IMG/VR virus record: IMGVR_UViG_3300045988_132703
DNA length: 64,000 nt
Origin: a virus
Strand: one strand, 5' to 3'
Part shown: positions 1 through 57,046 of the stretch, in pieces
Layout of the letters: each line of letters begins with the position of its first letter
Position numbering within the stretch: position 1 is the stretch's first letter
Translations under genes and position numbers: made by a program
Notes under the pieces: model-generated
Database searches by the model: none
What the model saw: only the letters and a program-made list of their open reading frames with translations
Told to the model about the DNA's origin: nothing

Positions 1-80
1 ATTTTTTTTTGTATCAAAAGTTAGTTGAGACTAATCCGCCCGGGCAAGTTAATCATGCCTAACTCAAGGTAAAATTAAAA

Positions 81-99
81 CCGCCCATCTCTGGGCGGC
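81..99 (-). terminator. Rho-independent terminator after the 105..251 gene
   Basis: Hairpin CCGCCCA/TGGGCGG. On the minus strand it is followed by TTTTAATTTT. Confidence 0.6.
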
Positions 100-104
100 T
101 AGCT

Positions 105-251
105 CTAATCTCTGTTGATTTGGGCGCGGGTTTCGTTTTTCTGCGCCTTGCGGTCATATGCGGTTTTCTTCTTAAAACGAGCAGGGCGTACACCCACAAA
201 GGTCTGACGCCGTGCGGCTCGCTCTTTTTTCTGTCGATTCTTTTCAAGCAT
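105..251 (-). CDS. small, very basic early protein (48 aa)
   Basis: ATG at 251 is preceded by AGAGGTGA. The protein MLEKNRQKKERAARRQ... is Lys/Arg-rich. It stops at TAG 105-107, directly in front of the terminator hairpin. Confidence 0.6.
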   Translation of the reverse strand: MLEKNRQKKERAARRQTFVGVRPARFKKKTAYDRKAQKNETRAQINRD

Positions 252-423
252 GATAATCACCTCTGATATGTACATCATAGACGGACAGCGTTTCCAACGG
301 GTGGCGATTCTGCACAATCTTGGTCGCGCTTGCTCCATCGGAAGCCCACGCACTTTCAATCAGCAATTCATTGTCCTTATTGTAGTAGACAACATCATAG
401 CAATTCAGTTCCTTAACACTCAT
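244..423 (-). CDS. hypothetical early protein (59 aa)
   Basis: This uses an internal ATG of the 244..483 track ORF, preceded by AGAGAGGTAA (MSVKELNCYDVVYY...). Its TGA stop overlaps the next start (ATGCTTGA). Confidence 0.6.
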   Translation of the reverse strand: MSVKELNCYDVVYYNKDNELLIESAWASDGASATKIVQNRHPLETLSVYDVHIRGDYHA

Positions 424-454
424 GGGGTTTACCTCTCTTTCATTTTCTATATAT

Positions 455-483
455 ATTATAGCATAGATTTTTGCGTTTGTCAA
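455..483 (-). promoter_or_regulatory. early promoter, TTGACA-17-TATAAT
   Basis: On the minus strand, TTGACA (483-478) is separated by a 17-nt spacer from TATAAT (460-455). The conserved leader ATATATAGAAAATGAAAGAGAGGT follows. Confidence 0.75.
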
Positions 484-782
484 GATTCAAAGAACAAAAA
501 AGTTAAAAGAAGATATAAAGGATAGAGGACAATCTGAAGTGCCGCAATCAAAATTGTTTTGAGTGCGAAAAGAGGGACGCGCAAGCCGCACTTTAAGCCA
601 TCTAAAACATCTTTACTTGTGATTTTATCACGATGATGAATTACACAATGCGCAATCTGAAGAAACCGCGCGAAATTTCCGAGGACATCGCCCATGAAGA
701 AATGAGAGGTAAAATCCCATTTCTTATCGCAGAATTTACAAGTGTAGACAACATGAGAATAATTCAAACCATCGTAAATCAT
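480..782 (-). CDS. hypothetical early protein (100 aa), Cys/His-containing
   Basis: Track ORF with RBS GAAAGGTA upstream of the ATG at 782. It contains CKFCDKKW...HCVIHH. Confidence 0.5.
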   Translation of the reverse strand: MIYDGLNYSHVVYTCKFCDKKWDFTSHFFMGDVLGNFARFLQIAHCVIHHRDKITSKDVLDGLKCGLRVPLFALKTILIAALQIVLYPLYLLLTFLFFES

Positions 783-817
783 TTTTAATACCTTTCTTTC
801 TCTCTTGATTTGTATAT

Positions 818-846
818 ATTATATCATAAGATATATAATTTGTCAA
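818..846 (-). promoter_or_regulatory. early promoter, TTGACA-17-TATAAT
   Basis: The plus strand shows ATTATA 818-823 and TGTCAA 841-846. The conserved leader AATCAAGAGAGAAAGAAAGG follows on the minus strand. Confidence 0.75.
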
Positions 847-921
847 TACCATAAATCGGACTTTCAAAGCGCCCGGGCGCACGAGTTAGCTATGTTTAAC
901 TTTAAATCAAAAAAAGAGAGG

Positions 922-1122
922 TTAATAACCTCTCAATTCCATCCGCACAATGCGGTCTGCCACACAGCGGGCAAGGGACTTTTTATTCCAGTCCCTGCTC
1001 TTGAGCAGATAAGCAATATTCCCAGGGTCAGATGCTCAGAAGCCACGCTGGACACCTTCAGCGATGATGCCCGCTTTCGTGAGCTTCATCAGGCGGTCAT
1101 ATTCGATTTGGAACATATTCAT
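922..1122 (-). CDS. small early ORF with one in-frame TGA (28 aa, or 66 aa if read through)
   Basis: ATG at 1122 follows AAGAGGTAA (MNMFQIEYDRLMKLTKAGIIAEGVQRGF). TGA lies at 1036-1038. The same frame continues for 37 codons to TAA at 922-924, inside the terminator hairpin GAGAGGTTATTAACCTCTC. Confidence 0.35.
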
Positions 1123-1158
1123 GGTAGTTACCTCTTTCTTTCTCTTGATTCTGTATAT

Positions 1159-1186
1159 ATTATACCACAGATTTTTATTTTGTCAA
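1159..1186 (-). promoter_or_regulatory. early promoter
   Basis: The plus strand shows ATTATA 1159-1164 and TGTCAA 1181-1186 with a 16-nt spacer. The same leader block appears as at 781-823. Confidence 0.7.
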
Positions 1187-1252
1187 TACTTTTTATGGGA
1201 CTTCTTGGCGCCCGGGCGAAGATTGTTAAATAAATAACTTTTGATTTTCCTC

Positions 1253-1280
1253 TTGACAAAATAGATTTATATGATATAAT
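1253..1280 (+). promoter_or_regulatory. rightward promoter for the 1317..1901 gene
   Basis: TTGACA 1253-1258 and TATAAT 1275-1280 are separated by a 16-nt spacer. Confidence 0.7.
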
Positions 1281-1316
1281 ATAATCAAGATAAGAAATGG
1301 AGAGAGGCAAATAAAA

Positions 1317-1901
1317 ATGGAAGATTACATGATTTATGAAGTATGTGATGATATTCTTTATATTCCGCGAGGAATTCAGACATGGCTTGCAAATCGTCCC
1401 ATGGAAAAGAAAATTTTTGAAGAATGGTTAGTTCAAAAAAAGAAACGCTATTATGTCCATTATATCGCGCTTAGTTCTTTTGGGACAAGAAAATATGGAC
1501 AAAGAACGATGCATATTAAGAAAAGAAATACTTCTTTTCACGCAGATGGAAACAGTGATGCCGATAAAGTCCGCCGAGAGCTAAAAATTGGTGGTGGTTA
1601 CGCTTATGTTATGGTCTTTGAAGGCGGTTTTAAAGTTGGTTTGACTAATGATTTAAAGCATCGCCGCAATCAGCTTAACGCTACTCACGACCATCATTAT
1701 GAAATTGCTTGGAGTTCTTCTTTTTCTACCTATGAAGCCGCCGCAATGATGGAATGTGATTTGCATTACTACTATAAAAAGTTGTATCCTAACAACTTCA
1801 TTCCTAATGACCATTTTAACATTGACGGTTTTGACGCTAGGCGCGATGTAAGAAAACTTAACAAAATGGCGGAAGAGTGTGAAGCACGTTATGCCGCTTG
1901 A
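1317..1901 (+). CDS. T5orf172 / GIY-YIG-superfamily-like nuclease domain protein (194 aa), free-standing
   Basis: It has the motif GGYAYVMVFEGGFKVGLTNDLKHRRNQL. It is the only plus-strand gene inside the minus-strand early block, with its own promoter, RBS GGAGAGAGG and terminator. Confidence 0.55.
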   Translation: MEDYMIYEVCDDILYIPRGIQTWLANRPMEKKIFEEWLVQKKKRYYVHYIALSSFGTRKYGQRTMHIKKRNTSFHADGNSDADKVRRELKIGGGYAYVMVFEGGFKVGLTNDLKHRRNQLNATHDHHYEIAWSSSFSTYEAAAMMECDLHYYYKKLYPNNFIPNDHFNIDGFDARRDVRKLNKMAEECEARYAA

Positions 1902-1922
1902 GGGCTTATGCCCTCTTTTTTA
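1900..1922 (+). terminator. Rho-independent terminator
   Basis: Hairpin GAGGGC-TTAT-GCCCTC is followed by TTTTTTAT. Confidence 0.7.
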
Positions 1923-1983
1923 TCTTAACTTATTAGTTGTAACTAACCGCCCGGTTAAGTTAGTTAAGACTAACCTGATAGAT

Positions 1984-2008
1984 AAAATAAAAGCCGCATA
2001 AAGCGGCT
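1984..2008 (-). terminator. Rho-independent terminator (minus strand)
   Basis: Hairpin AGCCGC-TTTAT-GCGGCT is followed by TTTTATTTT on the minus strand. Confidence 0.65.
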
Positions 2009-2013
2009 CAAAA

Positions 2014-2247
2014 TTATTTGTATTTAAATTGGACATTAGACGAATTGACATAAGGGGTTGTGTAACTTTCATAATGCCCACCATAAGGGTCAAGATGAAC
2101 ATAAACTCCTGTGTCATGAAGTTCATCCAAAGTCTCTTTGAGCGTGTCAATCAAATCGTGGATCTTTGCTTTTCTTGCTCGTTCTTCACGAGACTTAATG
2201 ATAGCGTCAATATCTTCCTGAGTCAAAGTCATAACATCAATATTCAT
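2014..2247 (-). CDS. hypothetical early protein (77 aa)
   Basis: Track ORF with RBS AAAGGAAG upstream. Confidence 0.6.
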   Translation of the reverse strand: MNIDVMTLTQEDIDAIIKSREERARKAKIHDLIDTLKETLDELHDTGVYVHLDPYGGHYESYTTPYVNSSNVQFKYK

Positions 2248-2251
2248 TTAA

Positions 2252-2578
2252 TTACTTCCTTTCTATCAACCACGAGGTAACGACCATCGGTGTTTCAGTT
2301 TTAAACCCAATTATCATACAGGCGACTTGCTTTTTATTATATGATACTCGAATACCAACTGAAATGATTTCGTTTTCCTCTAACTTTACTTCATAAATTG
2401 TAGCGCGTTTCATTTTTGTAGATGAGATTTTATTTAGGTCAATATTGCGCTCCTCTACTCTGTCTAAAAAATGTCCAGTCCTTGCTAATCTTTCAAAGTC
2501 TACTGTGTCAAGTTTTTCCTGAGCTAACTTAATCAGCGGCTTTCGCTTGGACAGCTGATAGCCGTTATATACCACCAT
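2252..2578 (-). CDS. hypothetical early protein (108 aa)
   Basis: Track ORF with RBS AAAGGAG upstream. Confidence 0.6.
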   Translation of the reverse strand: MVVYNGYQLSKRKPLIKLAQEKLDTVDFERLARTGHFLDRVEERNIDLNKISSTKMKRATIYEVKLEENEIISVGIRVSYNKKQVACMIIGFKTETPMVVTSWLIERK

Positions 2579-2612
2579 TTTCTTTTGCTCCTTTCTCTCT
2601 TGGTGTATCTAT

Positions 2613-2641
2613 ATTATATATCATTGCGCGAGAAATGTCAA
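2613..2641 (-). promoter_or_regulatory. early promoter
   Basis: The plus strand shows ATTATA 2613-2618 and TGTCAA 2636-2641 with a 17-nt spacer. Confidence 0.7.
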
Positions 2642-2782
2642 GAGGAAATTTGAAAGTTAATTATTTAACAAAGTTTGCCCGGGCAGTTAATCCTAACTAA
2701 CTTATACGGCAATAAAAAAAGAGGGTATAAGCCCTCTTAATATCTATAAAATAAAGGAACGATAATAACTTTCTTAGCCATT

Positions 2783-3022
2783 TTACATAACCTCCACATA
2801 AAAAGCACTATAAGTACCGCGCTCACTATCGCAGTTGTAATACTCAAAAGCATTTACCAGCGAATCAAAAGAAGAATAACCAGCATAATAGTTTGCGTCA
2901 CTCTTGTAATTCACAAGAATACCCCAGCGTAACGGGTCTTGGAAACGCGGCACAATCCAAAACTCTTTGCCTTCGTTGAACAGTTTACGAGCAGTGCGCT
3001 TATTGATTCTCTTGACAGTCAT
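2783..3022 (-). CDS. hypothetical early protein (79 aa)
   Basis: This uses an internal ATG of the 2783..3091 track ORF, preceded by AAGAAAGAGGTAAACAAA (MTVKRINKRTARKLF...). The upstream part of the track ORF covers the promoter. Confidence 0.6.
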   Translation of the reverse strand: MTVKRINKRTARKLFNEGKEFWIVPRFQDPLRWGILVNYKSDANYYAGYSSFDSLVNAFEYYNCDSERGTYSAFYVEVM

Positions 3023-3058
3023 TTTGTTTACCTCTTTCTTATCTCTTATCTTGTATAT

Positions 3059-3087
3059 AGTATAGCATAGATAATTCAGAATGTCAA
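3059..3087 (-). promoter_or_regulatory. early promoter (TTGACA-17-TATACT)
   Basis: The plus strand shows AGTATA 3059-3064 and TGTCAA 3082-3087. Confidence 0.65.
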
Positions 3088-3158
3088 GCATTATTTTCTT
3101 AAAGACCGTTTTATTGGACTGCGCCCGGGCCAGTTAGCTACAACTAATTTTTAAATTT

Positions 3159-3329
3159 TTATTCAAACGCTGTTCTTTCTTCATCCTCACAGATGAAATC
3201 GTCATCTTCATCCCAGAACAATACGAAATCGTCACAATCAGTAAGTGGATTTTCAATCCCGCATTCTCCGTTTTTGTAGTACGGACAGTCCCAACCATTA
3301 GCAGGACAATAAATTTTTCCTTTTCTCAT
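3159..3329 (-). CDS. hypothetical Cys-rich acidic early protein (56 aa)
   Basis: This ORF is below the track size cut-off. ATG at 3329 follows AAAGGTGA. The protein is MRKGKIYCPANGWDCPYYKNGECGIENPLTDCDDF..., ending at TAA 3159-3161. Confidence 0.5.
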   Translation of the reverse strand: MRKGKIYCPANGWDCPYYKNGECGIENPLTDCDDFVLFWDEDDDFICEDEERTAFE

Positions 3330-3341
3330 AGTTATCACCTT

Positions 3342-3581
3342 TTAGCAATCGTAGGTAAAACAGCCTGCATAGGGATCAAAGCCTTCATCGCTGTCAATAT
3401 CGTCAGGCTCGTCAGGCTCATCGTCTTCATCAGGCTCATAAGCAAGAAAGAAGATTCTTGCACCCTTATGCTGAGCTGCAAGATCACGGGCTTCTTCATA
3501 ACTCGTACACGGCACACCTGCATATTCCCCGTTATTCTTAACGACAGCCCACAAAGCGGAATTGAAATCGAAATCTCTCAT
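3342..3581 (-). CDS. hypothetical early protein with acidic tail (79 aa)
   Basis: Track ORF with RBS AGAAGG upstream. It contains a DEDDEPDEPDDIDSDE stretch. Confidence 0.6.
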   Translation of the reverse strand: MRDFDFNSALWAVVKNNGEYAGVPCTSYEEARDLAAQHKGARIFFLAYEPDEDDEPDEPDDIDSDEGFDPYAGCFTYDC

Positions 3582-3614
3582 AATTGGAACCTTCTTTCTT
3601 TTGATTGTGTATAT

Positions 3615-3643
3615 ATTATATCACGCATAGCTTAATTTGTCAA
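3615..3643 (-). promoter_or_regulatory. early promoter
   Basis: The plus strand shows ATTATA 3615-3620 and TGTCAA 3638-3643 with a 17-nt spacer. Confidence 0.7.
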
Positions 3644-3710
3644 TAGGTGTTTTGAAAGTTATTTATTTAACAAGTTCGCCCGGACAGTTAAACGTAACTA
3701 ACTGATAGGC

Positions 3711-4055
3711 AAAAAGAAACCGCATCGGATTTGATTCGTAAACCCCTGCAGTGGTTTAACATTTATCCGATACGGACAAGTATGGTGCTTGTTTGGCGGC
3801 GCATTCGCCCATCAATAGCGCAATAAGTAGATGCTAAGTGAATCCAGTATAATACATTCTAAATACCTTCTAAATTACAATAAAATTTTAGGCTCAGTCG
3901 CTAAGTAAATCCCGTATAATATTTCATAGGGCCTCCCACCGCAACCGATTATTACGGCTTCGTAATTTAATTATACACAATATGTTAAAGCGTTTAATCT
4001 TCGGGCGCCACCCCTACGTCCATATCATAGGCATTTCCTTTCTTTCTCTCTTGCT
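3711..4055 (-). ncRNA. candidate non-coding early transcript of about 345 nt
   Basis: It is bounded by the promoter at 4064-4092 and a long terminator hairpin (CCGTATCGGAT...ATCCGATGCGG plus TTTCTTTTT on the minus strand, 3711-3775). The only start behind the leader gives MPMIWT and then TAG. There is an internal direct repeat GCTAAGT(G/A)AATCC(A/C)GTATAATA at 3834-3854 and 3900-3920. Confidence 0.3.
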
Positions 4056-4063
4056 GTGTATAT

Positions 4064-4092
4064 ATAATACCATAGAATTATGGGATTGTCAA
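4064..4092 (-). promoter_or_regulatory. early promoter (TTGACA-17-TATTAT)
   Basis: The plus strand shows ATAATA 4064-4069 and TGTCAA 4087-4092. Confidence 0.65.
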
Positions 4093-4175
4093 TAAGAAAT
4101 TTGAATTTTATAGTCCGATTTATGGGATTTAATTTGCGCCCGGGCAGAGTTAGATAGTACTAACTACCTAACTTT

Positions 4176-4319
4176 TTAAGTATTATTTTCGTGCATGATT
4201 TTTTCAAGACGAGCCGCAGCTTCTTGAGCAATGCGGATGGATTCTTCTTTGCTCGGTATCACGAACTGTGGACGGTAGCCATACTTGTGAACCTGATTTA
4301 CATTGTAATACTTAGTCAT
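4176..4319 (-). CDS. hypothetical early protein (47 aa)
   Basis: This ORF is below the track cut-off. It starts at ATG 4319 (MTKYYNVNQVHKYGYRPQFVIPSKEESIRIAQEAAARLEKIMHENNT) and ends at TAA 4176-4178. Confidence 0.45.
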   Translation of the reverse strand: MTKYYNVNQVHKYGYRPQFVIPSKEESIRIAQEAAARLEKIMHENNT

Positions 4320-4362
4320 ATCTGTTTACCTCTCTTTTGTTTATCTCTCTTTCAGTGTCTAT

Positions 4363-4391
4363 ATTATAGCATAGTGCAAGCGATTTGTCAA
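4363..4391 (-). promoter_or_regulatory. early promoter
   Basis: The plus strand shows ATTATA 4363-4368 and TGTCAA 4386-4391 with a 17-nt spacer. Confidence 0.7.
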
Positions 4392-4503
4392 TCCCATTTA
4401 TGGTACTTTTAACTTGTTATTTATTTCACAATGTTTTGCCCGGGCGAATACTTGTTAAAAATTTAGCAAACTCGCCCAATAAAAAAGAGTGGATAGAATC
4501 CAC

Positions 4504-4677
4504 TCAATCTTTTGTGTATTCGTGAACAGATTCCTGTCCAATCAATTCATAGCTGATGGTATAAGAATCATCGTTGCCGCCCTCATATCGCGCGGACTTG
4601 ACAGCGGCATTAAAACCGAAAATATGAGCAAGGACAACAGCAATCAACAGAACCATAGTATAAAGAATCTTTTTCAT
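4504..4677 (-). CDS. small membrane or secreted early protein (57 aa)
   Basis: This uses an internal ATG of the 4504..4827 track ORF, preceded by AAAAGGAGTG. The N-terminus MKKILYTMVLLIAVVLAHIFGF is hydrophobic. Confidence 0.55.
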   Translation of the reverse strand: MKKILYTMVLLIAVVLAHIFGFNAAVKSARYEGGNDDSYTISYELIGQESVHEYTKD

Positions 4678-4696
4678 TTTGATACACTCCTTTTGA

Positions 4697-4861
4697 TTAG
4701 AAAAGAATCTTGCCGCAGAAGGCTTCGAGTGCGATAAAGTCATCGCCTGCGAACAGGACTTCATCACCGCGGCGGATAGTAACATAGCAGTCCATGGCAC
4801 GCTCCACATCATAGCCCATCTCGTCAAGAGCCATCAGTATTTTATTGATTTTGTTCTTCAT
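4697..4861 (-). CDS. hypothetical early protein (54 aa), paralog of 6536..6715
   Basis: ATG at 4861 follows AAAGAGGTAAACAAAAA (MKNKINKILMALDEMGYDVERAMD...). It shares INK-(I/M)-LMALDEMG-(Y/F) with the 6536..6715 product. Confidence 0.55.
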   Translation of the reverse strand: MKNKINKILMALDEMGYDVERAMDCYVTIRRGDEVLFAGDDFIALEAFCGKILF

Positions 4862-4893
4862 TTTTGTTTACCTCTTTCTTTGTTTCTGTATAT

Positions 4894-4921
4894 ATTATAC
4901 CATATATATTTTATTTGTCAA
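4894..4921 (-). promoter_or_regulatory. early promoter
   Basis: The plus strand shows ATTATA 4894-4899 and TGTCAA 4916-4921 with a 16-nt spacer. Confidence 0.7.
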
Positions 4922-5014
4922 TACCTATTTTAGGAAAGTCCTAATTATGGGACTGTAAAGTCGCCCGGGAATTCAAGTTAATTGAAACTAACTAAAAAAT
5001 AAAGGGCTGATTTC

Positions 5015-5194
5015 TCAGTTCTCTTTATTACTTAATAACCAATCAACATAATCTTTACTGACTTCGCCCTGTTTCGGCAACATTCTACCAAAAGGGTCAG
5101 TATAAACATGATTGACTTTATATTTTCCTGTTTCTGTGCGCTCAACGCTCAAAATTTTGTCGCCGATTGCGCGGTAATACTTTTCTTTTTCCAT
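5015..5194 (-). CDS. hypothetical early protein (59 aa)
   Basis: ATG at 5194 lies 6 nt after AAGAGGTG. The track ORF start at 5203 is a GTG inside that RBS. Confidence 0.55.
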   Translation of the reverse strand: MEKEKYYRAIGDKILSVERTETGKYKVNHVYTDPFGRMLPKQGEVSKDYVDWLLSNKEN

Positions 5195-5206
5195 TTGATT
5201 CACCTC

Positions 5207-5395
5207 TTAAAAATCACGGTCATCAAACATAGGCTGGTCAGCCATAAAATAATGATAGCCAGCCAAAACTTTCGGACTAGAATCTTTCGGATAGTAGTCA
5301 TGCGTGGCTTGATTGAGTTTATCACATTCTTCTTGCGAACCACCATAACGATACAAGAAAGTATTGCCATCTTTTTCCATGTAAATGCACTTCAT
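5207..5395 (-). CDS. hypothetical early protein (62 aa)
   Basis: Track ORF with RBS AAAGAGGTAA upstream. Confidence 0.6.
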   Translation of the reverse strand: MKCIYMEKDGNTFLYRYGGSQEECDKLNQATHDYYPKDSSPKVLAGYHYFMADQPMFDDRDF

Positions 5396-5428
5396 ATTTA
5401 TTACCTCTTTCTTTCTTTCTGTATCTAA

Positions 5429-5457
5429 ATTATATCATACATTTCGGGATATGTCAA
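5429..5457 (-). promoter_or_regulatory. early promoter
   Basis: The plus strand shows ATTATA 5429-5434 and TGTCAA 5452-5457 with a 17-nt spacer. Confidence 0.7.
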
Positions 5458-5529
5458 TAGTAATCAGCCCAATTTATAGGACTTTCTAAATTTTTTAATT
5501 AGTTGAAACTAACTTTACCCGGGCATTTT

Positions 5530-6050
5530 AGGAGTCAATAAAATTATAAGCTGGCCGCGTACAAATAATAGGAAAATTTTTTTAATTAAAAACCACACAA
5601 AATAGGAAAACTAAATTTAATTTTAGGATTTGCTATTGATAAAATTAAAATTAAATTACATAATTTTAGGATTTTTTATTGTATATATGTATATATAAAT
5701 ATATATAATTTATATTAAATGATAGTTAGTTTCAGGATTTTATTTTAATTCTTTTTCTATTGATTAAAATAAAATCAATATAATTTTAGGATAATTTATA
5801 TACATATATATAAATATATACATATATCCAATATAATATATCATTTCGGGAAAACTAATTCCAAAAGTAAAAATCAAATTTTTTAGAATTCAAATTTTAT
5901 TTGATTGCGCCCGGCGGATACCTTGTATAGTTTTAGGATTTTATTATTAGATTTTGCTATTGATTTACAAATGAATCAAAATAAAATCGAGCAACCCTAT
6001 TTCGGGAAACTCGATTTTTTAATTTGAGTATGATTTTGGATGAATCAAAA
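5530..6050. repeat. non-coding, extremely AT-rich repeat region (candidate replication origin)
   Basis: No ORF is present. There are at least 7 copies of TTTTAGGAT-like boxes (near 5525, 5621, 5664, 5731, 5784, 5881 and 5931), two copies of TTGCTATTGAT, two (TA)-rich blocks TATATATGTATATATAAATATATATA / TATACATATATATAAATATATACATATAT, and two copies of ATTTCGGGAAA. Confidence 0.5.
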
Positions 6051-6233
6051 TTAAATCATCCATTTCAAATTCATATAAATCCAATGGGGTATTTCAGCTT
6101 TGCTCATGTTTTTCAACGCAACCTCGTCAAACATTAAACCGCCTTCAACCTCAAAAGCCTTGACACCGTTTTTATTCAGAAGCTCTGCAAATGCTTTGTT
6201 ATCAAACAGACTGTTGGTGTTGTACATTTTCAT
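6051..6233 (-). CDS. hypothetical early protein (60 aa)
   Basis: Track ORF with RBS GAGGAAG/ATGAGGTA upstream. Confidence 0.55.
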   Translation of the reverse strand: MKMYNTNSLFDNKAFAELLNKNGVKAFEVEGGLMFDEVALKNMSKAEIPHWIYMNLKWMI

Positions 6234-6282
6234 AGTAGATACCTCATTCTTCCTCGGTGGTTTTATCTCTTTCAGTGTCTAT

Positions 6283-6311
6283 ATTATACCATGGTGCAAG
6301 CCGGATGTCAA
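6283..6311 (-). promoter_or_regulatory. early promoter
   Basis: The plus strand shows ATTATA 6283-6288 and TGTCAA 6306-6311 with a 17-nt spacer. Confidence 0.7.
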
Positions 6312-6360
6312 TGTTTGGTAGTACTATAAAACGGATTTCTAAATAAAATCATAGTATTCT

Positions 6361-6520
6361 AGTTAGTTATGACTAACTGTGAGTTAGTATAATTGGTTAG
6401 TTATAACTAACCGAACTATGACGCTATTGAGTTAGCTATGACTAACTCTTGCCTGGGTGAACTAGTTAGACATGACTAACTTGCCCGGGCAAACATAGTT
6501 AGCTATGCCTAACCCGGCGG
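6361..6520. promoter_or_regulatory. array of about 6 inverted-repeat boxes AGTTAG-N6-CTAACT with CCCGGG-type palindromes (candidate protein-binding array)
   Basis: The boxes are AGTTAGTTATGACTAACT, GGTTAGTTATAACTAACC, AGTTAGCTATGACTAACT, AGTTAGACATGACTAACT and AGTTAGCTATGCCTAACC, plus one half box. GCCTGGGTG, GCCCGGGC and CCCGGCGG are interspersed. There is no ORF. Confidence 0.6.
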
Positions 6521-6535
6521 AAAAGAAAGAGCGGA

Positions 6536-6715
6536 TTAGTGCTCATTACTAACCCACTTCAAGAGTCCTTCATAAGGCTGGACTGATTTGAAATCGCCTG
6601 TCAGAATCAAATTTTCATTTTCATCAAAGATTTGGACAAATTCATCCATAACTCTCTCTACGATAAAACCCATTTCATCGAGAGCCATCAGCATTTTATT
6701 GATTTCATTCATCAT
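6536..6715 (-). CDS. hypothetical early protein (59 aa), paralog of 4697..4861
   Basis: This ORF is below the track cut-off. ATG at 6715 follows AAAGAGGTAACTAAA (MMNEINKMLMALDEMGFIVERVMD...). It ends at TAA 6536-6538. Confidence 0.55.
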   Translation of the reverse strand: MMNEINKMLMALDEMGFIVERVMDEFVQIFDENENLILTGDFKSVQPYEGLLKWVSNEH

Positions 6716-6806
6716 TTTAGTTACCTCTTTCTATTGGTTGATTAGTTGATTGATACACAAGGATTAGGGCGGCCCACCCCGAAGGGTGGGCTTTTCAGCC
6801 CCTCTC

Positions 6807-7277
6807 TCACTTGGAGAGGTTCCGCAGGGAACTCTCGGTGCAGAATGTTGCTTTCTGGAATTTTACCTGATAAGCGATTCCATCAGCTTCGATGTCGCCC
6901 GCTTCGGTGAACGGAACATTATCTTTCGTCCAAGTCTGTCCGAAGTACTCGGTCATGAGCATTTCGAAGATTTCGCCCTTGTTGTACTTGCTGGTCTTAA
7001 CCATCTCATTGAACTGATCTTCTGAACAAACCGCAATCAGCTTGCCGGCAGTCTTGAGCATTTCCTTCTGTGCCTTGTTGGGGCTAAACCGGACAGAGTA
7101 ACCGCCGCCATTCTTGCTGGAGGCGCGGTCAAGGGTCAGTGCATAGGGCAGAACGCTAGAATCAGTGATAACAGCATAAACAACGCCGCGATCCGTAAAG
7201 CCAAAAATGTAGTTGTGAGTGAATGCCAGTGCGTTGTAGCGGTCAGTCATAGTCTTGAGCATGGTCAGGTTGGTCAT
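6807..7277 (-). CDS. hypothetical early protein (156 aa), possibly nuclease-like
   Basis: Track ORF with RBS AAAGAGGT upstream. The segment AGDIEADGIAYQVKFQK loosely resembles a PD-(D/E)xK core, which is weak evidence. A GC hairpin GCCCACCC-TTCG-GGGTGGGC lies downstream at 6773-6792. Confidence 0.5.
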   Translation of the reverse strand: MTNLTMLKTMTDRYNALAFTHNYIFGFTDRGVVYAVITDSSVLPYALTLDRASSKNGGGYSVRFSPNKAQKEMLKTAGKLIAVCSEDQFNEMVKTSKYNKGEIFEMLMTEYFGQTWTKDNVPFTEAGDIEADGIAYQVKFQKATFCTESSLRNLSK

Positions 7278-7326
7278 AGTGAATACCTCTTTCCGGGGTT
7301 GCGCCCCTCTTTGTTTCTATGCCTTT

Positions 7327-7355
7327 ATTATACACTTATCCGGTTTATTTGTCAA
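7327..7355 (-). promoter_or_regulatory. leftmost-module promoter (first early promoter)
   Basis: The plus strand shows ATTATA 7327-7332 and TGTCAA 7350-7355 with a 17-nt spacer. Confidence 0.7.
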
Positions 7356-7430
7356 TGCTTTTTTGCAATTTTTTTTTCGTTAAAATGCACAACGTTTTAT
7401 ATAATTTTTTGTGCATTCTGCCATATAAAC

Positions 7431-7560
7431 AGAGCGACTGATCCGAGCGCCACTTGTACGCGGTACACGGTCAAGTGCACGCCGACCGCGGACAATATGG
7501 GGTGTACGCCGACCGCGCACACTTGACCGCGACCGGGGTGTGTATTCAGGACGCGAACAG
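7431..7560. repeat. GC-rich non-coding island with imperfect direct repeats
   Basis: The repeats are GTGCACGCCGACCGCGG (7475-7491), GTGTACGCCGACCGCGC (7502-7518), CACTTGTACGCGGTAC (7451-) and CACTTGACCGCGACC (7519-). The composition contrasts sharply with the AT-rich flanks. It sits in the divergent control region between modules 1 and 2. Confidence 0.5.
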
Positions 7561-7593
7561 ATTGACAAATTTTTAACAGGCCGGGCCTAGTTA

Positions 7594-7684
7594 TCACTGT
7601 ATAGAAATTACTCAAATTAAAATTCCAAATTTTACCATTTTCACTGTACAGAAATTACTCAAATTAAAATTCCAATTTTTACCA
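7594..7684. repeat. two tandem 44-bp direct repeats
   Basis: TCACTGTA(T/C)AGAAATTACTCAAATTAAAATTCCAA(A/T)TTTTACCA occurs at 7594-7637 and 7641-7684, just upstream of the rightward promoter. Confidence 0.8.
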
Positions 7685-7726
7685 AATTTAAACTCAAATC
7701 CTTGAGTTCCACTCCTACTCATCTAC

Positions 7727-7755
7727 TTGACTTCTCCCTCTAACTCTGGTATAAT
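7727..7755 (+). promoter_or_regulatory. rightward promoter of the structural module
   Basis: TTGACT 7727-7732, a 17-nt spacer, and the extended -10 TGGTATAAT ending at 7755. Confidence 0.7.
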
Positions 7756-7885
7756 TTAATTAGAAAAGTTAGATGAAAAGATATTCATTTTACTTGTTAA
7801 TTTTTTAACAATTATCTTCTCATTATTATTCAAGGAGAAACAATAATTTGATTTGGTTTCGCCAACTCAAATTGCTTAACAACCA

Positions 7886-9049
7886 ATGTTAGATTTTGAT
7901 ATTTACTCAGATACAGACCGCGCCACCGCAGTCAAAGATGAATTATCCAAACTTACTAAACCACCCACTCAATCTCAACTTGAAACAATGGCCAATTATA
8001 TTCTTTTTGGTAAAGATTCTAATGGGCAAAATGCAGTTGACCGTGGTGAAGTTCAAATTCAAACTAAATATTCATCTTATCGCAAAAAGAAAGAAGAGTC
8101 TCTCGATGAGCTTACCGAGTCTCCTACTTTCAATGAAGCTGAACTCAAACCCATTCATCGTTCAGTTTATAAAAATCCTAAACCAGAGCTTGATCGTTCG
8201 CTTCCCGAACTCCAGCCTCTTCTCACTACCATTGCGCAATATGAATCGTAGTTAGAAGATTTAGAAAAGCTCCCGCAAACAAAAGACGTCAAAGACCGTA
8301 TCTATAATTTGAAACATTTAGTCATTTCACTTAAAAAAGAGCAATATTCACTTTAGGAAATTGTGCGCCCGCCGCTTCAATTAATGAGTTATAACCGTCC
8401 TGCGCCAGAACCTTTCGTAGACAATCTCTGCGAGAATATTGGTCCTCTCGGCTTAAAAATTGGCAATCTAACTCGATTTACTAATCCAAAAGAAGATCAT
8501 AATCAATCTCAACTTTCAGATTTTTATGATCCCACGCGCAAAGGAATTAATCTCGAAGACCCTACTCATATTTATTTTCTCATCGAGGCTTATGAGTCTC
8601 TTTATGAGAGGGGGCTAGATAATCCGTATATTAATGCTAAGTACCTAATTGAAACATTGGACTGGTATATAGATTAGGTTCCATTTGACCAGAATCGTCT
8701 GGATATTATTGCGCTCAAAAAACGCCATTGCCCCAATAGCCAAATTCGTAAATATCTTAATGAGAAATATGGATTTAATTATAGCGAAAACTATATTAGT
8801 ACAATTTACACTAAAGAAATTTGTAAAAAGATTGCGGCGCAAGTTAGTTTGCATAAAGAGAAATGGGAAAGACGTTTCGAGCCAGGAGTTTGGAAAAAGT
8901 GTTCTTGCTGCGGCGAATGGAAATTAAAAGATGCCCGCGAATTTGTAAGACGAAAAAATTCAGAAGATGGATTTACTTCTCGTTGTAAAATGTGTGATAG
9001 AAAGAAGAAATTAGCCAAGAAAATAGAAGAAAATAAACCAATAAAATAA
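7886..9049 (+). CDS. hypothetical DNA-binding-like protein with C-terminal zinc ribbon (387 aa with 3 TAG read as sense)
   Basis: Track ORFs 7886..8251, 8363..8677 and 8849..9049 are in one frame, separated only by TAG. The C-terminus has CSCCGEWK...CKMCDRKK. There is no obvious SD before the ATG at 7886. Confidence 0.55.
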
Positions 9050-56722: not shown

Positions 56723-57046
56723 TTACTCAGCGCTCTTTGCAGCCTTAGCAGCAGCCTTAGCAGCTTTCTCAGCAGCCTTACGCTCGGCTTCCTCAGCCTC
56801 AGCCTTCTCAGGATCGAAAGCCATGCCCTCGTCAGTCAAAGCAATATACTTAACAGTGGTCTTCTTACCCTCAACCTCGATAACATCCTCGGTACGAACG
56901 GCATAGCCCTTACGAACAAGACCATTGACAGAACCAGTAACAGCAGAAACGGTAATGCCGAGCTTCTCAGCAATCTCGCCAGCAGTCAAATTAACATCAT
57001 GATTGTCGTGAAGAAAATGAAATACATTCTTAGAATTCTCAGTCAT
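56723..57046 (-). CDS. winged-helix DNA-binding protein with Ala/Lys/Glu-rich tail (107 aa)
   Basis: It has LTAGEIAEKLGITVSAVTGSVNGLVRKGYAV (HTH-like). The C-terminal tail is AEAEEAERKAAEKAAKAAAKAAKSAE. Confidence 0.55.
   Translation of the reverse strand: MTENSKNVFHFLHDNHDVNLTAGEIAEKLGITVSAVTGSVNGLVRKGYAVRTEDVIEVEGKKTTVKYIALTDEGMAFDPEKAEAEEAERKAAEKAAKAAAKAAKSAE

What the first reader, a model, noticed from the sequence alone, without database searches (positions are those of the whole stretch)
6361..6520. A recurring GCCCGGGC plus AGTTAG-N6-CTAACT motif between early genes, expanded into a six-box array
Between most early cassettes, about 35-45 nt upstream of the next -35, there is an 8-bp palindrome GCCCGGGC (or a close variant) next to an 18-bp inverted repeat AGTTAG-N6-CTAACT. 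Examples are at 19-64, 871-901, 1933-1975, 2677-2702, 3123-3148, 3677-3703, 4138-4165, 4962-4994 and 5498-5524, with degenerate copies near 1208, 4438, 5905 and 7574. At 6361-6520 five to six boxes are packed at a spacing of about 20-35 bp with three CCCGGG-like elements and no ORF. The stems are too short and AT-rich to be good terminators, and the spaced half-sites look like binding sites for a dimeric protein. Possible roles are operators for a phage regulator of the early promoters, a partition or packaging recognition array, or an initiator-binding array next to the AT-rich region at 5530-6050. I cannot tell which.
Basis: seen in the sequence. Interest (0 to 1): 0.65.

Follow-up and report, generated by a model that had tools for sequence, protein, structure and literature searches.

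The report
Boundary palindromes between phage early genes
Two short mirror-symmetric DNA sites mark the end of almost every tiny early gene unit of an uncultured ~176-kb gut/rumen phage. They most likely bind paired proteins that fence the units off from one another. Strain comparisons show that these repeated modules are also where the phage swaps gene cassettes.

Summary
AGTTAG-N6-CTAACT (BOX) gives 22 hits against 3.4 expected, and GCCCGGGC (PAL) gives 14 against 3.0. All good copies lie in 1-7586, the minus-strand early region.

The "six-box array" is a tandem duplication of a 33-35-bp BOX+PAL unit. It holds 5 boxes, 1 intact PAL and 2 decayed PALs. It sits in the same terminator-to-promoter slot as the single copies.

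- **PAL** is conserved across the whole phage family. Relatives whose early regions share no other alignable DNA, apart from one marker gene, carry 10-14 exact copies each. PAL sits at every unit boundary (tandem, convergent or divergent), 11-98 nt from the next -35.
- **BOX** follows unit 3' ends, not promoters. It is adjacent on 147/191 non-promoter sides of PAL and on 17/121 promoter sides.
- Both elements are dyad-symmetric down to their flanks and spacer. BOX shows no clear covariation, weak hairpin energy and no U-tract.

They therefore look like double-stranded binding sites for dimeric proteins, not terminators.

Cassette indels between strains are flanked by these repeated modules. 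That matches the PeSL elements of T4-type phages.

The binding proteins and the exact role (boundary/insulator or early shut-off) are inferred, not shown. I found no support for a partition, packaging or origin role.

The parts
6361..6514 (.). Array of five BOX copies (6361-6378, 6395-6412, 6430-6447, 6464-6481, 6497-6514). It also holds one intact PAL (6483-6490), decayed PALs (6451-6458 GCCTGGGT; ~6513-6520) and an orphan half-site at 6382. It is a tandem duplication of a 33-35-bp BOX+PAL unit, lying between terminator 6558-6530(-) and promoter 6311(-).
19..64 (.). BOX (19-36), PAL (38-45), BOX (47-64): a convergent-type junction with a box on each side of PAL. The minus-strand terminator lies at 100-79.
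871..901 (.). PAL 871-878 and BOX 884-901. Terminator 934-916(-) lies upstream and promoter -35 at 846(-) downstream.
1210..1217 (.). PAL alone, with no BOX, between divergent promoters 1186(-) and 1253(+).
1931..1975 (.). Convergent junction: degenerate BOX 1931-1948, decayed PAL 1949-1956 (GCCCGGTT), BOX 1958-1975. It is flanked by terminators 1900-1915(+) and 2009-1991(-).
2677..2702 (.). PAL 2677-2684 directly abutting BOX 2685-2702. Terminator 2738-2719(-) upstream; promoter 2641(-) downstream.
3123..3149 (.). PAL 3123-3130 and BOX 3132-3149. There is no separate terminator; the box follows the stop codon of the 3159-3329(-) gene. Promoter 3087(-) downstream.
3678..3703 (.). PAL variant GCCCGGAC 3678-3685 and BOX 3686-3703. 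Promoter 3643(-) downstream.
4138..4165 (.). PAL 4138-4145 and an exact BOX 4148-4165. Promoter 4092(-) downstream.
4438..4445 (.). PAL without BOX. A Rex-like inverted repeat (4452-4469) lies on its 3'-end side. Terminator 4505-4487(-); promoter 4391(-).
4963..4993 (.). PAL variant GCCCGGGA 4963-4970 and BOX 4976-4993. Promoter 4921(-) downstream.
5497..5524 (.). BOX 5497-5514 and PAL variant ACCCGGGC 5517-5524, in the inverted order (PAL then BOX in the sense direction). It forms an inverted repeat with the module at 6476-6500 and bounds the AT-rich region.
   Evidence: I7
7579..7586 (.). PAL variant GGCCGGGC at the outer edge of the early region, between the divergent early (7355-) and + strand (7727+) promoters.
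455..7355 (-). Thirteen near-consensus sigma-A-type promoters (TTGACA-N16/17-TATAAT, 11 of the 13 with an extended TG). Their -35 starts are 7355, 6311, 5457, 4921, 4391, 4092, 3643, 3087, 2641, 1186, 846 and 483 on the minus strand, plus 1253 on the plus strand. They drive tiny ORFan units and form the promoter half of each module.

Best explanation
**Setting.** The window comes from an uncultured ~176-kb tailed phage. Its late genes read TAG as a sense codon, and the host is probably a member of the Clostridia. Positions 1-7400 on the minus strand (continuing beyond the left edge of the window) form a host-takeover-like early region. It holds many tiny ORFan units, each with a consensus sigma-A promoter, a strong ribosome-binding site and usually its own intrinsic terminator.

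**What the motif is.** It is the boundary module of these units: [terminator]-BOX-PAL-[upstream element]-promoter.
- PAL (bbGCCCGGGCvv, about 12 bp) is a dyad-symmetric site found across the whole phage family. It marks every junction between units, whatever their relative orientation.
- BOX (AGTTAG-TYATRA-CTAACT, 18 bp) is a second dyad-symmetric site, 0-6 bp from PAL on the side of a unit's 3' end. It is abundant in this lineage and sporadic in others, which use other boxes of similar design.

**Most likely mechanism (inferred).** Each element is bound as double-stranded DNA by a dimeric protein. The bound boundary then delimits neighbouring, very strong early units. It could block read-through or act as an insulator. 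It could also be a landing site from which the immediate-early class is shut off while the PAL-free promoters of the replication module keep firing.

**Shown.** The repeated modules are the homology patches at which cassettes are gained, lost and replaced between strains. The array at 6361-6514 is a tandem duplication of the BOX+PAL unit in the normal slot. It could be a reinforced boundary or sink, or simply a slippage product.
For: **Shown**
- Both motifs are enriched and confined to the early region.
- PAL is exact in 326 non-redundant contexts from 51 family loci, and mismatches fall mainly at the outer bases.
- Lineages whose marker protein is only ~60% identical carry 10-14 exact PALs per locus, in the same slot. 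Only the marker gene aligns at the DNA level between these lineages.
- PAL flanks are constrained in mirror image: A is at 1% just 5' of PAL and T at 3% just 3' of it, although the neighbours on the two sides differ.
- PAL occurs at tandem, convergent and divergent junctions. BOX is adjacent on 147/191 non-promoter sides against 17/121 promoter sides.
- BOX arm spacing is 6 bp in 233 of 234 copies.
- Spacer composition is mirror-symmetric even when every box is oriented BOX->PAL: T6/A11, Y7/R10, A8/T9.
- There are no compensatory doubles at pairs 1-16 and 5-12.
- Promoters of the replication module (for example 57150 and 54612) lack both elements.
- Strain indels are flanked by 9-97-bp direct repeats. 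These are BOX-PAL-upstream-(-35) modules, promoter-leader-SD modules, or the SD alone.

**Supporting context**
- Another upstream element matches the clostridial Rex operator TTGTTAANNNNTTAACAA, with a perfect copy at 7794-7811 (consensus from PMC9600882). This suggests the modules carry sites for transcription factors.
- A MarR-type winged-helix protein is encoded at 56723-57046.
Against: - No binding protein is identified.
- The conserved 156-aa early protein has a confident model but no structural neighbour.
- The MarR-type protein has only 66 homologues against 1038 for the marker protein, and nothing links it to BOX.
- Within the array, box arms and PALs vary between strains about as much as the flanking DNA: 0.20 and 0.25 against 0.22 variable columns. 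Individual array sites are therefore not under visibly stronger constraint, although the sample is small.
- The BOX-to-PAL gap varies over 0-6 bp, so the two are not one rigid composite site.
- Two boxes at convergent junctions, where one palindrome would serve both directions, fit inheritance with the cassette, or a signal read during transcription, as well as they fit a roadblock.
- Pair 0-17 shows a mild excess of G-C doubles (22 against ~12.5 expected). Pair 2-15 shows 5 T-A to G-C doubles against 3+3 single changes; I did not inspect these and they may be related by descent.
- No RNA data could be used.
Confidence: 0.5

Rival explanations
1. BOX, and the hairpins that abut PAL in other lineages, act as single-stranded structures at the 3' ends of transcripts. 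This would resemble REP/BIME elements or the PeSL stem-loop: a back-up attenuator, a guard against 3' exonucleases, or a processing site. PAL would be a signal read after the hairpin during transcription.
For: - BOX follows unit 3' ends and is doubled at convergent junctions, in the order hairpin then PAL from each side.
- In 80% of oriented junctions a hairpin ends 0-5 nt before PAL.
- In relatives the slot is filled by diverse GC-rich hairpins, many without a T-run.
- Some units (3132-3149, 4148-4165) have no other terminator, so BOX would be transcribed.
- Single-side variants on the sense strand lean towards G.T over A.C, 30 to 19.
Against: - BOX hairpins are weak and lack U-tracts, and the scan never calls them terminators.
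- Most lie downstream of a canonical terminator.
- The arms are conserved in sequence, with no compensatory change at pairs 1-16 and 5-12.
- Loop composition is mirror-symmetric (Y7/R10, A8/T9), which a loop does not need.
- PAL flanks are mirror-symmetric, and PAL also stands alone at divergent promoters.
- There is no Rfam match.
Confidence: 0.15
2. The elements have no biochemical role of their own. They are passengers of cassette duplication and homologous recombination: repeated junction DNA that persists and spreads because it promotes its own exchange, as a purely PeSL-like or selfish repeat would.
For: - Indel ends are the repeated modules, including parts with no PAL such as the SD alone or the promoter plus leader. 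Recombination is therefore driven by homology and is not specific to PAL.
- The array is a simple tandem duplication.
- Array sites evolve as fast as their flanks.
Against: - An exact 8-mer with mirror-constrained flanks recurs 10-14 times per locus in lineages where no other intergenic DNA aligns. Drift plus hitch-hiking should not keep 8 of 8 bases while everything around them turns over.
- BOX keeps a strict 6-bp spacer and symmetric spacer preferences across lineages.
Confidence: 0.15
3. PAL is the target of a sequence-specific enzyme rather than a regulator. The enzyme could be a symmetric nuclease or nickase, a methyltransferase, or a ParB/Noc-like clamp loader. On my recollection, GCCC/GGGC is the SrfI site, CCCGGG is the SmaI/XmaI site, and the Noc site is ATTTCCCGGGAAAT. 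Such an enzyme would create or mark cassette ends and allow orientation-free joining.
For: - PAL is a perfect 8-bp palindrome at every cassette boundary.
- Inverted cassettes are bounded by PAL on both sides, for example 1210...1949.
- Several mosaic boundaries fall at the PAL edge.
- The core CCCGGG is the firmest part of the motif.
Against: - Indel ends are not specific to PAL.
- No nuclease, methyltransferase or ParB-like gene was linked to it.
- The idea that the marker protein is a PD-(D/E)xK nuclease found no structural support.
- The similarity to SrfI, SmaI and Noc sites rests on memory and was not tested.
Confidence: 0.1
4. The array at 6361-6514 is a centromere-like, packaging or replication-initiator site that works together with the AT-rich region at 5530-6050.
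For: - It is a regular array of inverted repeats with a 33-35-bp period. From memory, this resembles the F-plasmid sopC centromere array.
- An AT-rich, repeat-rich stretch lies 300 bp away.
Against: - The unit repeated in the array is the ordinary junction module, in the ordinary slot between a terminator and a promoter.
- BOX is dispersed over at least 15 junctions.
- The AT-rich region has different repeats, and gene 6051-6233 and its promoter separate it from the array.
- Other lineages have arrays of other boxes upstream of the marker gene.
- No partition genes were seen in the window.
Confidence: 0.05

Closest known systems
PeSL (promoter-early stem-loop) regulatory cassettes of T4-type phages (Arbiol et al. 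2010, PMC2839356; Comeau et al. 2014, PMC4122927)
   Same: - Repeated composite modules with a strong sigma-70-type early promoter, an AT-rich upstream stretch and a stem-loop.
- Concentrated between small ORFan genes in plastic regions.
- Indels and replacements between close strains have their ends in the modules.
   Different: - The phage group and host are unrelated.
- Here separate intrinsic terminators exist.
- The module carries two extra sequence-conserved, dyad-symmetric sites, one of them (PAL) invariant across a whole family. PeSLs are not described as having this.
- PeSL mini-circles could not be looked for.
SPBRE, the repeated operator of the SPbeta master repressor MrpR/YopR (PMC10516654)
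   Same: - A short motif repeated in about ten intergenic promoter regions of a large Firmicutes phage, bound by one phage protein that controls the lytic genes.
- The window's structural genes are distantly SPbeta-like (YonG_N, YonB and YonD_N domains).
   Different: - The sequence is unrelated. SPBRE as derived here is ...ACAAATAC-AAAAAATATGTAT-ATA, and SPbeta has no CCCGGG in 100 kb.
- In the seven copies derived here SPBRE lies 29-97 nt upstream of the start codon, next to or within the promoter. BOX follows gene 3' ends, and PAL has no fixed distance to the promoter.
REP/BIME intergenic palindromes of enterobacteria (from established knowledge, not tested here)
   Same: - Sequence-conserved imperfect palindromes placed after genes, at co-directional and convergent junctions but not between divergent promoters.
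- Often clustered in arrays with conserved linkers.
   Different: - REPs are about 35 nt, GC-rich, stable hairpins that are transcribed, chromosomal, and mobilised by RAYT transposases.
- BOX is 18 bp, a weak hairpin, symmetric in its spacer, and phage-borne.
Host-takeover module of Bacillus phage SPO1 (from established knowledge; cited in PMC6873191 and PMC10531801)
   Same: A cluster of about two dozen small early genes, with many strong sigma-A promoters and strong ribosome-binding sites.
   Different: To my knowledge no conserved boundary palindromes are described there. This was not tested here.
KorB/OB and KorA/OA global operator network of plasmid RK2 (from established knowledge)
   Same: Short palindromic operators scattered at variable distances from many promoters, bound by dimeric global regulators that act at a distance.
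   Different: It is a plasmid system, and the ParB-family protein is known there. Here no such protein has been found, and BOX tracks 3' ends.

Membership tests
PeSL-type regulatory cassette | Strong sigma-70-type early promoter with an AT-rich upstream region in each repeat | tested here: met
   13 promoters match 11-12 of 12 positions, 11 of them with an extended TG and AT-rich upstream elements
PeSL-type regulatory cassette | Stem-loop in the module that acts as terminator or attenuator | tested here: inconclusive
   Canonical terminators are predicted just 5' of BOX. BOX itself is a weak hairpin without a U-tract. Function was not measured.
PeSL-type regulatory cassette | Concentrated in a plastic ORFan region, upstream of ORFans | tested here: met
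   Nine of the ten early proteins tested have no family match. The tenth, the T5orf172-like endonuclease, gave a PHROG endonuclease match and Pfam hits below cut-off. Gene content differs between strains that share an identical marker protein.
PeSL-type regulatory cassette | Indel and replacement end points between close relatives lie in the modules | tested here: met
   Indels are flanked by 9-97-bp repeats made of BOX-PAL-upstream-(-35) modules, promoter-leader-SD modules, or the SD alone
PeSL-type regulatory cassette | Excised mini-circles formed between neighbouring modules | not testable with these tools
Intrinsic (rho-independent) terminator | GC-rich stem followed by a T/U-tract | tested here: not met
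   No BOX is called by the terminator scan. BOX folds at -1.7 to -6 kcal/mol (one at -9.6) against -10 to -11 for neighbouring terminators. BOX is followed by GC-rich PAL, not by T's.
SPBRE / MrpR operator of SPbeta | Match to the SPBRE motif | tested here: not met
   The SPBRE derived from seven MrpR-bound promoter regions is AT-rich and unrelated. BOX and PAL are absent from the first 100 kb of SPbeta.
Dimeric transcription-factor operator (double-stranded DNA) | Dyad symmetry with fixed half-site spacing, sequence rather than pairing conserved, symmetry extending into spacer and flanks | tested here: met
   One caveat: mild excesses of double changes at pairs 0-17 and 2-15.
Dimeric transcription-factor operator (double-stranded DNA) | A cognate binding protein | not testable with these tools
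   The candidates are only a MarR-type protein at 56723-57046 or a host factor. No link has been shown.
Classical promoter-proximal activator or repressor site | Fixed position or helical phase relative to the -35/-10 | tested here: not met
   The PAL-to-(-35) distance runs 11-98 nt without phasing. BOX is on the 3'-end side of PAL.
Iteron origin or centromere (parS/sopC-like) array | Array adjacent to initiator or partition genes, with sites restricted to that locus | tested here: not met
   The sites are dispersed over at least 15 junctions. No partition or initiator gene lies beside the array. The AT-rich region uses other repeats.
Integron attC cassette array | Promoterless cassettes in one orientation, long imperfect attC hairpins, adjacent integrase/attI | tested here: not met
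   Every cassette has its own promoter, and both orientations occur. BOX is 18 bp. Indel ends are homology-driven. No integrase was seen in the loci.
Known RNA family (Rfam) | Covariance-model match | tested here: not met
   No match with E <= 1 in 1-8000

The most novel reading that the evidence does not exclude
PAL is a family-wide 'standard junction'. A dedicated symmetric protein, from the phage or the host, would recognise bbGCCCGGGCvv at every early-unit boundary. Candidates are a ParB/KorB-like clamp, a degenerate nuclease or a new fold such as the conserved 156-aa early protein. With lineage-specific partner boxes (BOX, CTTTA-N6-TAAAG) it would make early genes insulated, orientation-independent, exchangeable parts. 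That would be a boundary-element system not described for phages.
Probability: 0.2. Interest if true: 0.8.

Novelty: new variant of a known kind. Interest (0 to 1): 0.55.

Why it matters
Early 'host-takeover' regions are where phages keep and trade their least understood genes, including anti-defence and host-shut-off genes.

A conserved boundary code would matter in four ways:
- It would explain how dozens of consensus-strength promoters can sit head to tail without interfering with each other.
- It would explain how the immediate-early class can be told apart from the other sigma-A promoters of the same phage.
- It would explain why cassettes move so freely between strains.
- It gives a simple sequence handle, GCCCGGGC next to a consensus promoter, for finding early regions and unit boundaries in a large family of uncultured Clostridia phages from gut and rumen.

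The dyad-symmetric sites are also ready-made baits for identifying the regulators.

Tried and rejected
1. **crAss-like phage with virion-RNAP hairpin promoters.** Rejected. The 2336-aa ORF looks like a tape-measure protein, and the structural genes are SPbeta-like.
2. **Near-identical known phage.** None found. The portal protein is at most 32% identical to cultured Enterococcus, Lactococcus and Bacillus phages, and the marker protein is absent from them.
3. **The 156-aa conserved early protein as a PD-(D/E)xK-like PAL binder.** The model is good (pLDDT 91), but there is no PDB sequence hit and no fold neighbour in the PDB or BFVD. Unsupported.
4. **A PAL-specific recombinase.** Rejected as the main driver, because indel ends include the SD alone and promoter-only repeats.
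5. **SPBRE identity.** Rejected.
6. **Purifying selection within the array, measured between strains.** The first attempt was confounded by repeat register. The anchored alignment shows no difference between sites and flanks.
7. **Linking the MarR-type protein to BOX through its distribution.** It has only 66 homologues, and none could be matched to contigs of the box-poor lineages. Inconclusive.
9. **Literature search for GCCCGGGC plus phage.** It returned only primer sequences.
10. **Rfam.** No match.
Full report
**What the window is**

Standard translation leaves the plus-strand genes at 7880-40000 fragmented. Reading TAG as a sense codon nearly doubles the summed length of long ORFs, from 7971 to 15372 codons. 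It restores a 2336-aa tape-measure-like protein, a 1440-aa protein and a portal protein. The minus-strand genes at 40-64 kb encode a replication module: DnaB-like helicase, AAA_24, Pol III alpha-like pieces, GyrA/GyrB-like proteins, dUTPase and HNH endonucleases.

Relatives carry SPbeta-type structural domains (YonG_N, YonB, YonD_N). Related IMG/VR contigs reach 176-179 kb. There is no close cultured relative. Promoters are TTGACA-N17-TATAAT, 11 of the 13 with an extended TG. Shine-Dalgarno sites are strong. Contigs carrying the motif are binned in Clostridia and Acutalibacteraceae MAGs. This points to a Clostridia host, which is an inference.

**The early region**

Positions 1-7400 carry about 20 tiny minus-strand genes. 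Nine of the ten tested have no family match; the tenth is the T5orf172-like endonuclease. They are grouped into units, each with a 11-12/12 consensus promoter and usually a predicted intrinsic terminator. One unit, a T5orf172/GIY-YIG-like endonuclease at 1317-1901, is inverted.

**Checking the observation**

BOX (AGTTAG-N6-CTAACT, up to 2 mismatches) gives 22 hits against 3.4 expected. Sixteen lie in 19-6514, and the other six are all two-mismatch hits elsewhere. PAL (GCCCGGGC, up to 1 mismatch) gives 14 hits against 3.0 expected, twelve of them in 38-7586. CCCGGG occurs 10 times in the first 7.7 kb and never in the remaining 56 kb.

In the direction of early transcription the order is terminator, BOX, PAL, an upstream element, then the -35.

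The array has five boxes starting at 6361, 6395, 6430, 6464 and 6497. Tandem Repeats Finder describes it as a 33-bp unit made of BOX plus PAL. It lies between terminator 6558-6530 and promoter 6311, which is the same slot as a single module.

**PAL and BOX are two different things**

The 156-aa protein at 6807-7277 served as a handle. It retrieved strains with an identical protein but different cassette content (L001-L016), and lineages with only ~60% identity (L017-L025).

In the distant lineages nothing but the marker gene aligns at the DNA level. Even so, each locus carries 10-14 exact GCCCGGGC copies. Each copy lies just after the preceding gene's hairpin and 9-60 nt before the next TTGACA.

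Across 51 family loci there are 326 exact and 223 one-mismatch non-redundant contexts. Mismatches are concentrated at the outer bases. The flanks are constrained in mirror image: A is almost absent at the two positions 5' of PAL and T at the two positions 3' of it, although the two sides have different neighbours. PAL is therefore a symmetric site of about 12 bp on double-stranded DNA. Its distance to the -35 ranges from 11 to 98 nt with no phasing, which does not fit a classical promoter-proximal factor.

BOX is abundant in the window's lineage. It occurs only here and there in two other lineages, always next to PAL, and is nearly absent from two more. Those lineages use other inverted repeats of similar design, especially CTTTA-N6-TAAAG with the same 6-bp spacer. 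They also have arrays of such boxes upstream of the marker gene.

**BOX is a symmetric double-stranded site, not a hairpin signal**

- Arm spacing is 6 bp in 233 of 234 copies.
- When every box is oriented BOX->PAL (n=175), the spacer composition is mirror-symmetric: T .57 / A .46, Y .83 / R .84, A .46 / T .47. A loop has no need for that.
- At the inner arm pairs that vary enough to test, single transitions are common but compensatory doubles are not: 0 at pair 1-16 and 1 at pair 5-12. The outermost pair shows a mild excess (22 against ~12.5 expected), and pair 2-15 shows 5 T-A to G-C doubles that I did not follow up.
- On the sense strand G.T is only modestly preferred over A.C, 30 to 19.
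- As RNA the boxes fold at -1.7 to -6 kcal/mol (one at -9.6) and have no U-tract. The adjacent true terminators fold at -10 to -11.
- There is no Rfam match.

**Where BOX sits**

Each side of each PAL in the window's lineage was classed by whether a promoter points away from it. BOX is adjacent on 147 of 191 non-promoter sides and on 17 of 121 promoter sides. Junctions with no promoter within 125 nt on either side of PAL (convergent gene ends and the tandem arrays) have a box on both sides in 42 of 58 cases. Divergent promoter pairs have none in 19 of 23 cases. In the window, 19-64 and 1931-1975 are BOX-PAL-BOX, and 1210 is PAL alone between two promoters.

BOX therefore belongs to the 3' end of a unit, not to the next promoter. 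PAL belongs to the boundary itself. The BOX-to-PAL gap varies over 0-6 bp, so these are two neighbouring sites, not one rigid composite.

**Cassette shuffling (shown)**

Pairwise comparison of 14 strains gives dozens of insertions and deletions of 170-2700 bp. Their ends are direct repeats of 9-97 bp, of three kinds:
- BOX-PAL-upstream element-(-35);
- promoter-leader-SD;
- the SD alone.

Replacements also begin at the PAL edge and end at the -35. This is homologous exchange between repeated regulatory modules, as described for PeSLs in T4-type phages. It is not specific to PAL.

**What the sites most likely do (inferred)**

The mirror symmetry points to dimeric proteins. Four observations point to a boundary or class-control role:
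- the sites are restricted to the immediate-early class;
- they are absent from the sigma-A promoters of the replication module;
- they occur at all three junction types;
- they have no fixed geometry relative to the promoter.

Such a role could be blocking read-through and interference between very strong neighbouring units. It could also be providing landing sites from which the early class is silenced later in infection.

Another element between PAL and the -35 matches the clostridial Rex operator. A perfect copy lies at 7794-7811, downstream of the plus-strand promoter 7727-7755. Four of the six hits with two or fewer mismatches fall in the first 7.8 kb (consensus from PMC9600882). This suggests the modules carry transcription-factor sites, some perhaps for host factors.

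The only recognisable sequence-specific DNA binder in the window is a MarR-type winged-helix protein. Nothing links it to BOX. The conserved 156-aa early protein gives a confident model without any structural neighbour.

**The array**

Because it repeats the ordinary BOX+PAL unit in the ordinary slot, the simplest reading is tandem duplication of a boundary module. Among eleven strain variants its arms, spacers and PALs vary as much as the surrounding DNA (0.20, 0.27 and 0.25 against 0.22 variable columns). So I cannot show that the extra copies are selected.

The AT-rich stretch at 5530-6050 has its own repeats (TTTTAGGAT, TA tracts). A gene and a promoter separate it from the array. A role for the array in replication, partition or packaging is not supported, though it is not strictly excluded.

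**Comparison with known systems**

The architecture and the evolutionary behaviour match PeSLs, in an unrelated phage group. SPbeta's SPBRE/MrpR system is the closest example of one operator repeated across early promoters of a related kind of phage, but the sequence and placement differ. REP/BIME elements share the 3'-end placement rule and the clustering.

The apparently new feature is a pair of dyad-symmetric boundary sites. One is invariant across a large uncultured phage family, and the other is lineage-specific. I found no description of them.

**Verdict**

- The dimer-binding idea is supported by sequence evidence.
- The reading of BOX as a promoter operator is contradicted.
- The partition and origin ideas are unsupported.
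- The biochemical function remains inferred.

Noticed in passing
window 7880-40000 (+): The late/structural genes are broken by in-frame TAG codons. Reading TAG as sense nearly doubles the summed ORF length and restores proteins of 2336 aa and 1440 aa. The early and replication genes on the minus strand do not need this. No suppressor tRNA was found in the window.
   Followed up: partly
window 7794-7811; also 4452-4469, 2654-2671, 4414-4431, 1223-1240, 3656-3673: There is a perfect match to the clostridial Rex (redox repressor) operator TTGTTAANNNNTTAACAA, about 35 nt downstream of the plus-strand promoter 7727-7755. Weaker Rex-like boxes lie close to PAL at several early junctions, most of them between PAL and the -35. 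L024 has an array of about 7 such boxes (3900-4100). The phage may tie its transcription to the host's redox state.
   Followed up: partly
window 5530-6050: An ORF-free, very AT-rich stretch carries about six TTTTAGGAT-type repeats, long TA tracts and several inverted repeats. It is bounded by inverted BOX-PAL modules (5497-5524 and 6464-6490). It is a candidate replication origin.
   Followed up: partly
window 3715-4092 (-): A consensus promoter (-35 at 4092) is followed by about 340 nt without a normal ORF. There is only a tiny ORF that hits TAG after four codons. The region folds with z = -2.2 and has no Rfam match. It is shared by most strains and may be a non-coding RNA or a recoded micro-ORF.
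   Followed up: partly
window 7400-7700: The divergent control region between the early and plus-strand genes contains a GC-rich stretch with inverted GGTCAAGTG/CACTTGACC and repeated GTACGCCGACCGCG. It also holds a 47-bp tandem repeat (7594-7684, 1.9 copies, 95% match).
   Followed up: no
window 6807-7277 (-): The 156-aa first early protein is the most conserved early gene, with 1038 homologues at about 60% identity. Invariant residues include E102, E105, D119, D128, Q137 and K139. AlphaFold2 gives pLDDT 91, yet there is no structural neighbour in the PDB or BFVD. L022 carries two paralogues.
   Followed up: yes
window 1317-1901 (+): This inverted cassette encodes a T5orf172/MUG113 (GIY-YIG-like) endonuclease with its own promoter (1253) and terminator (1900-1915). 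It is bounded by PAL 1210 and decayed PAL 1949. The segment 487-2250 is replaced by other DNA in all the related strains compared.
   Followed up: partly
whole window: GATC (61 observed against ~177 expected) and GAATTC (4 against ~19) are strongly avoided outside the early region. This suggests pressure from host restriction systems. CCCGGG is not avoided but is concentrated at unit boundaries.
   Followed up: no
window 4697-4861 (-) and 6536-6715 (-): Two small early proteins are paralogues that share the N-terminal motif INKxLMALDEMGxxVERxMD. The second ends immediately before the box array.
   Followed up: no
window 46612-46941 (-), 62683-63321 (-): HNH endonuclease genes, one with an AP2 domain, sit among the Pol III alpha-like pieces and the GyrA/GyrB-like genes. 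The Pol III alpha-like gene is in several pieces. Related strains also carry many GIY-YIG, HNH and NUMOD genes next to the early region (L001-L007).
   Followed up: no
L020 17250-17420 (and L024 6338, 11811; L023 16281): In some relatives a consensus promoter on the opposite strand fires directly into PAL, then a box, then a terminator. That would give a transcript of only about 100 nt, possibly a small RNA containing PAL.
   Followed up: no
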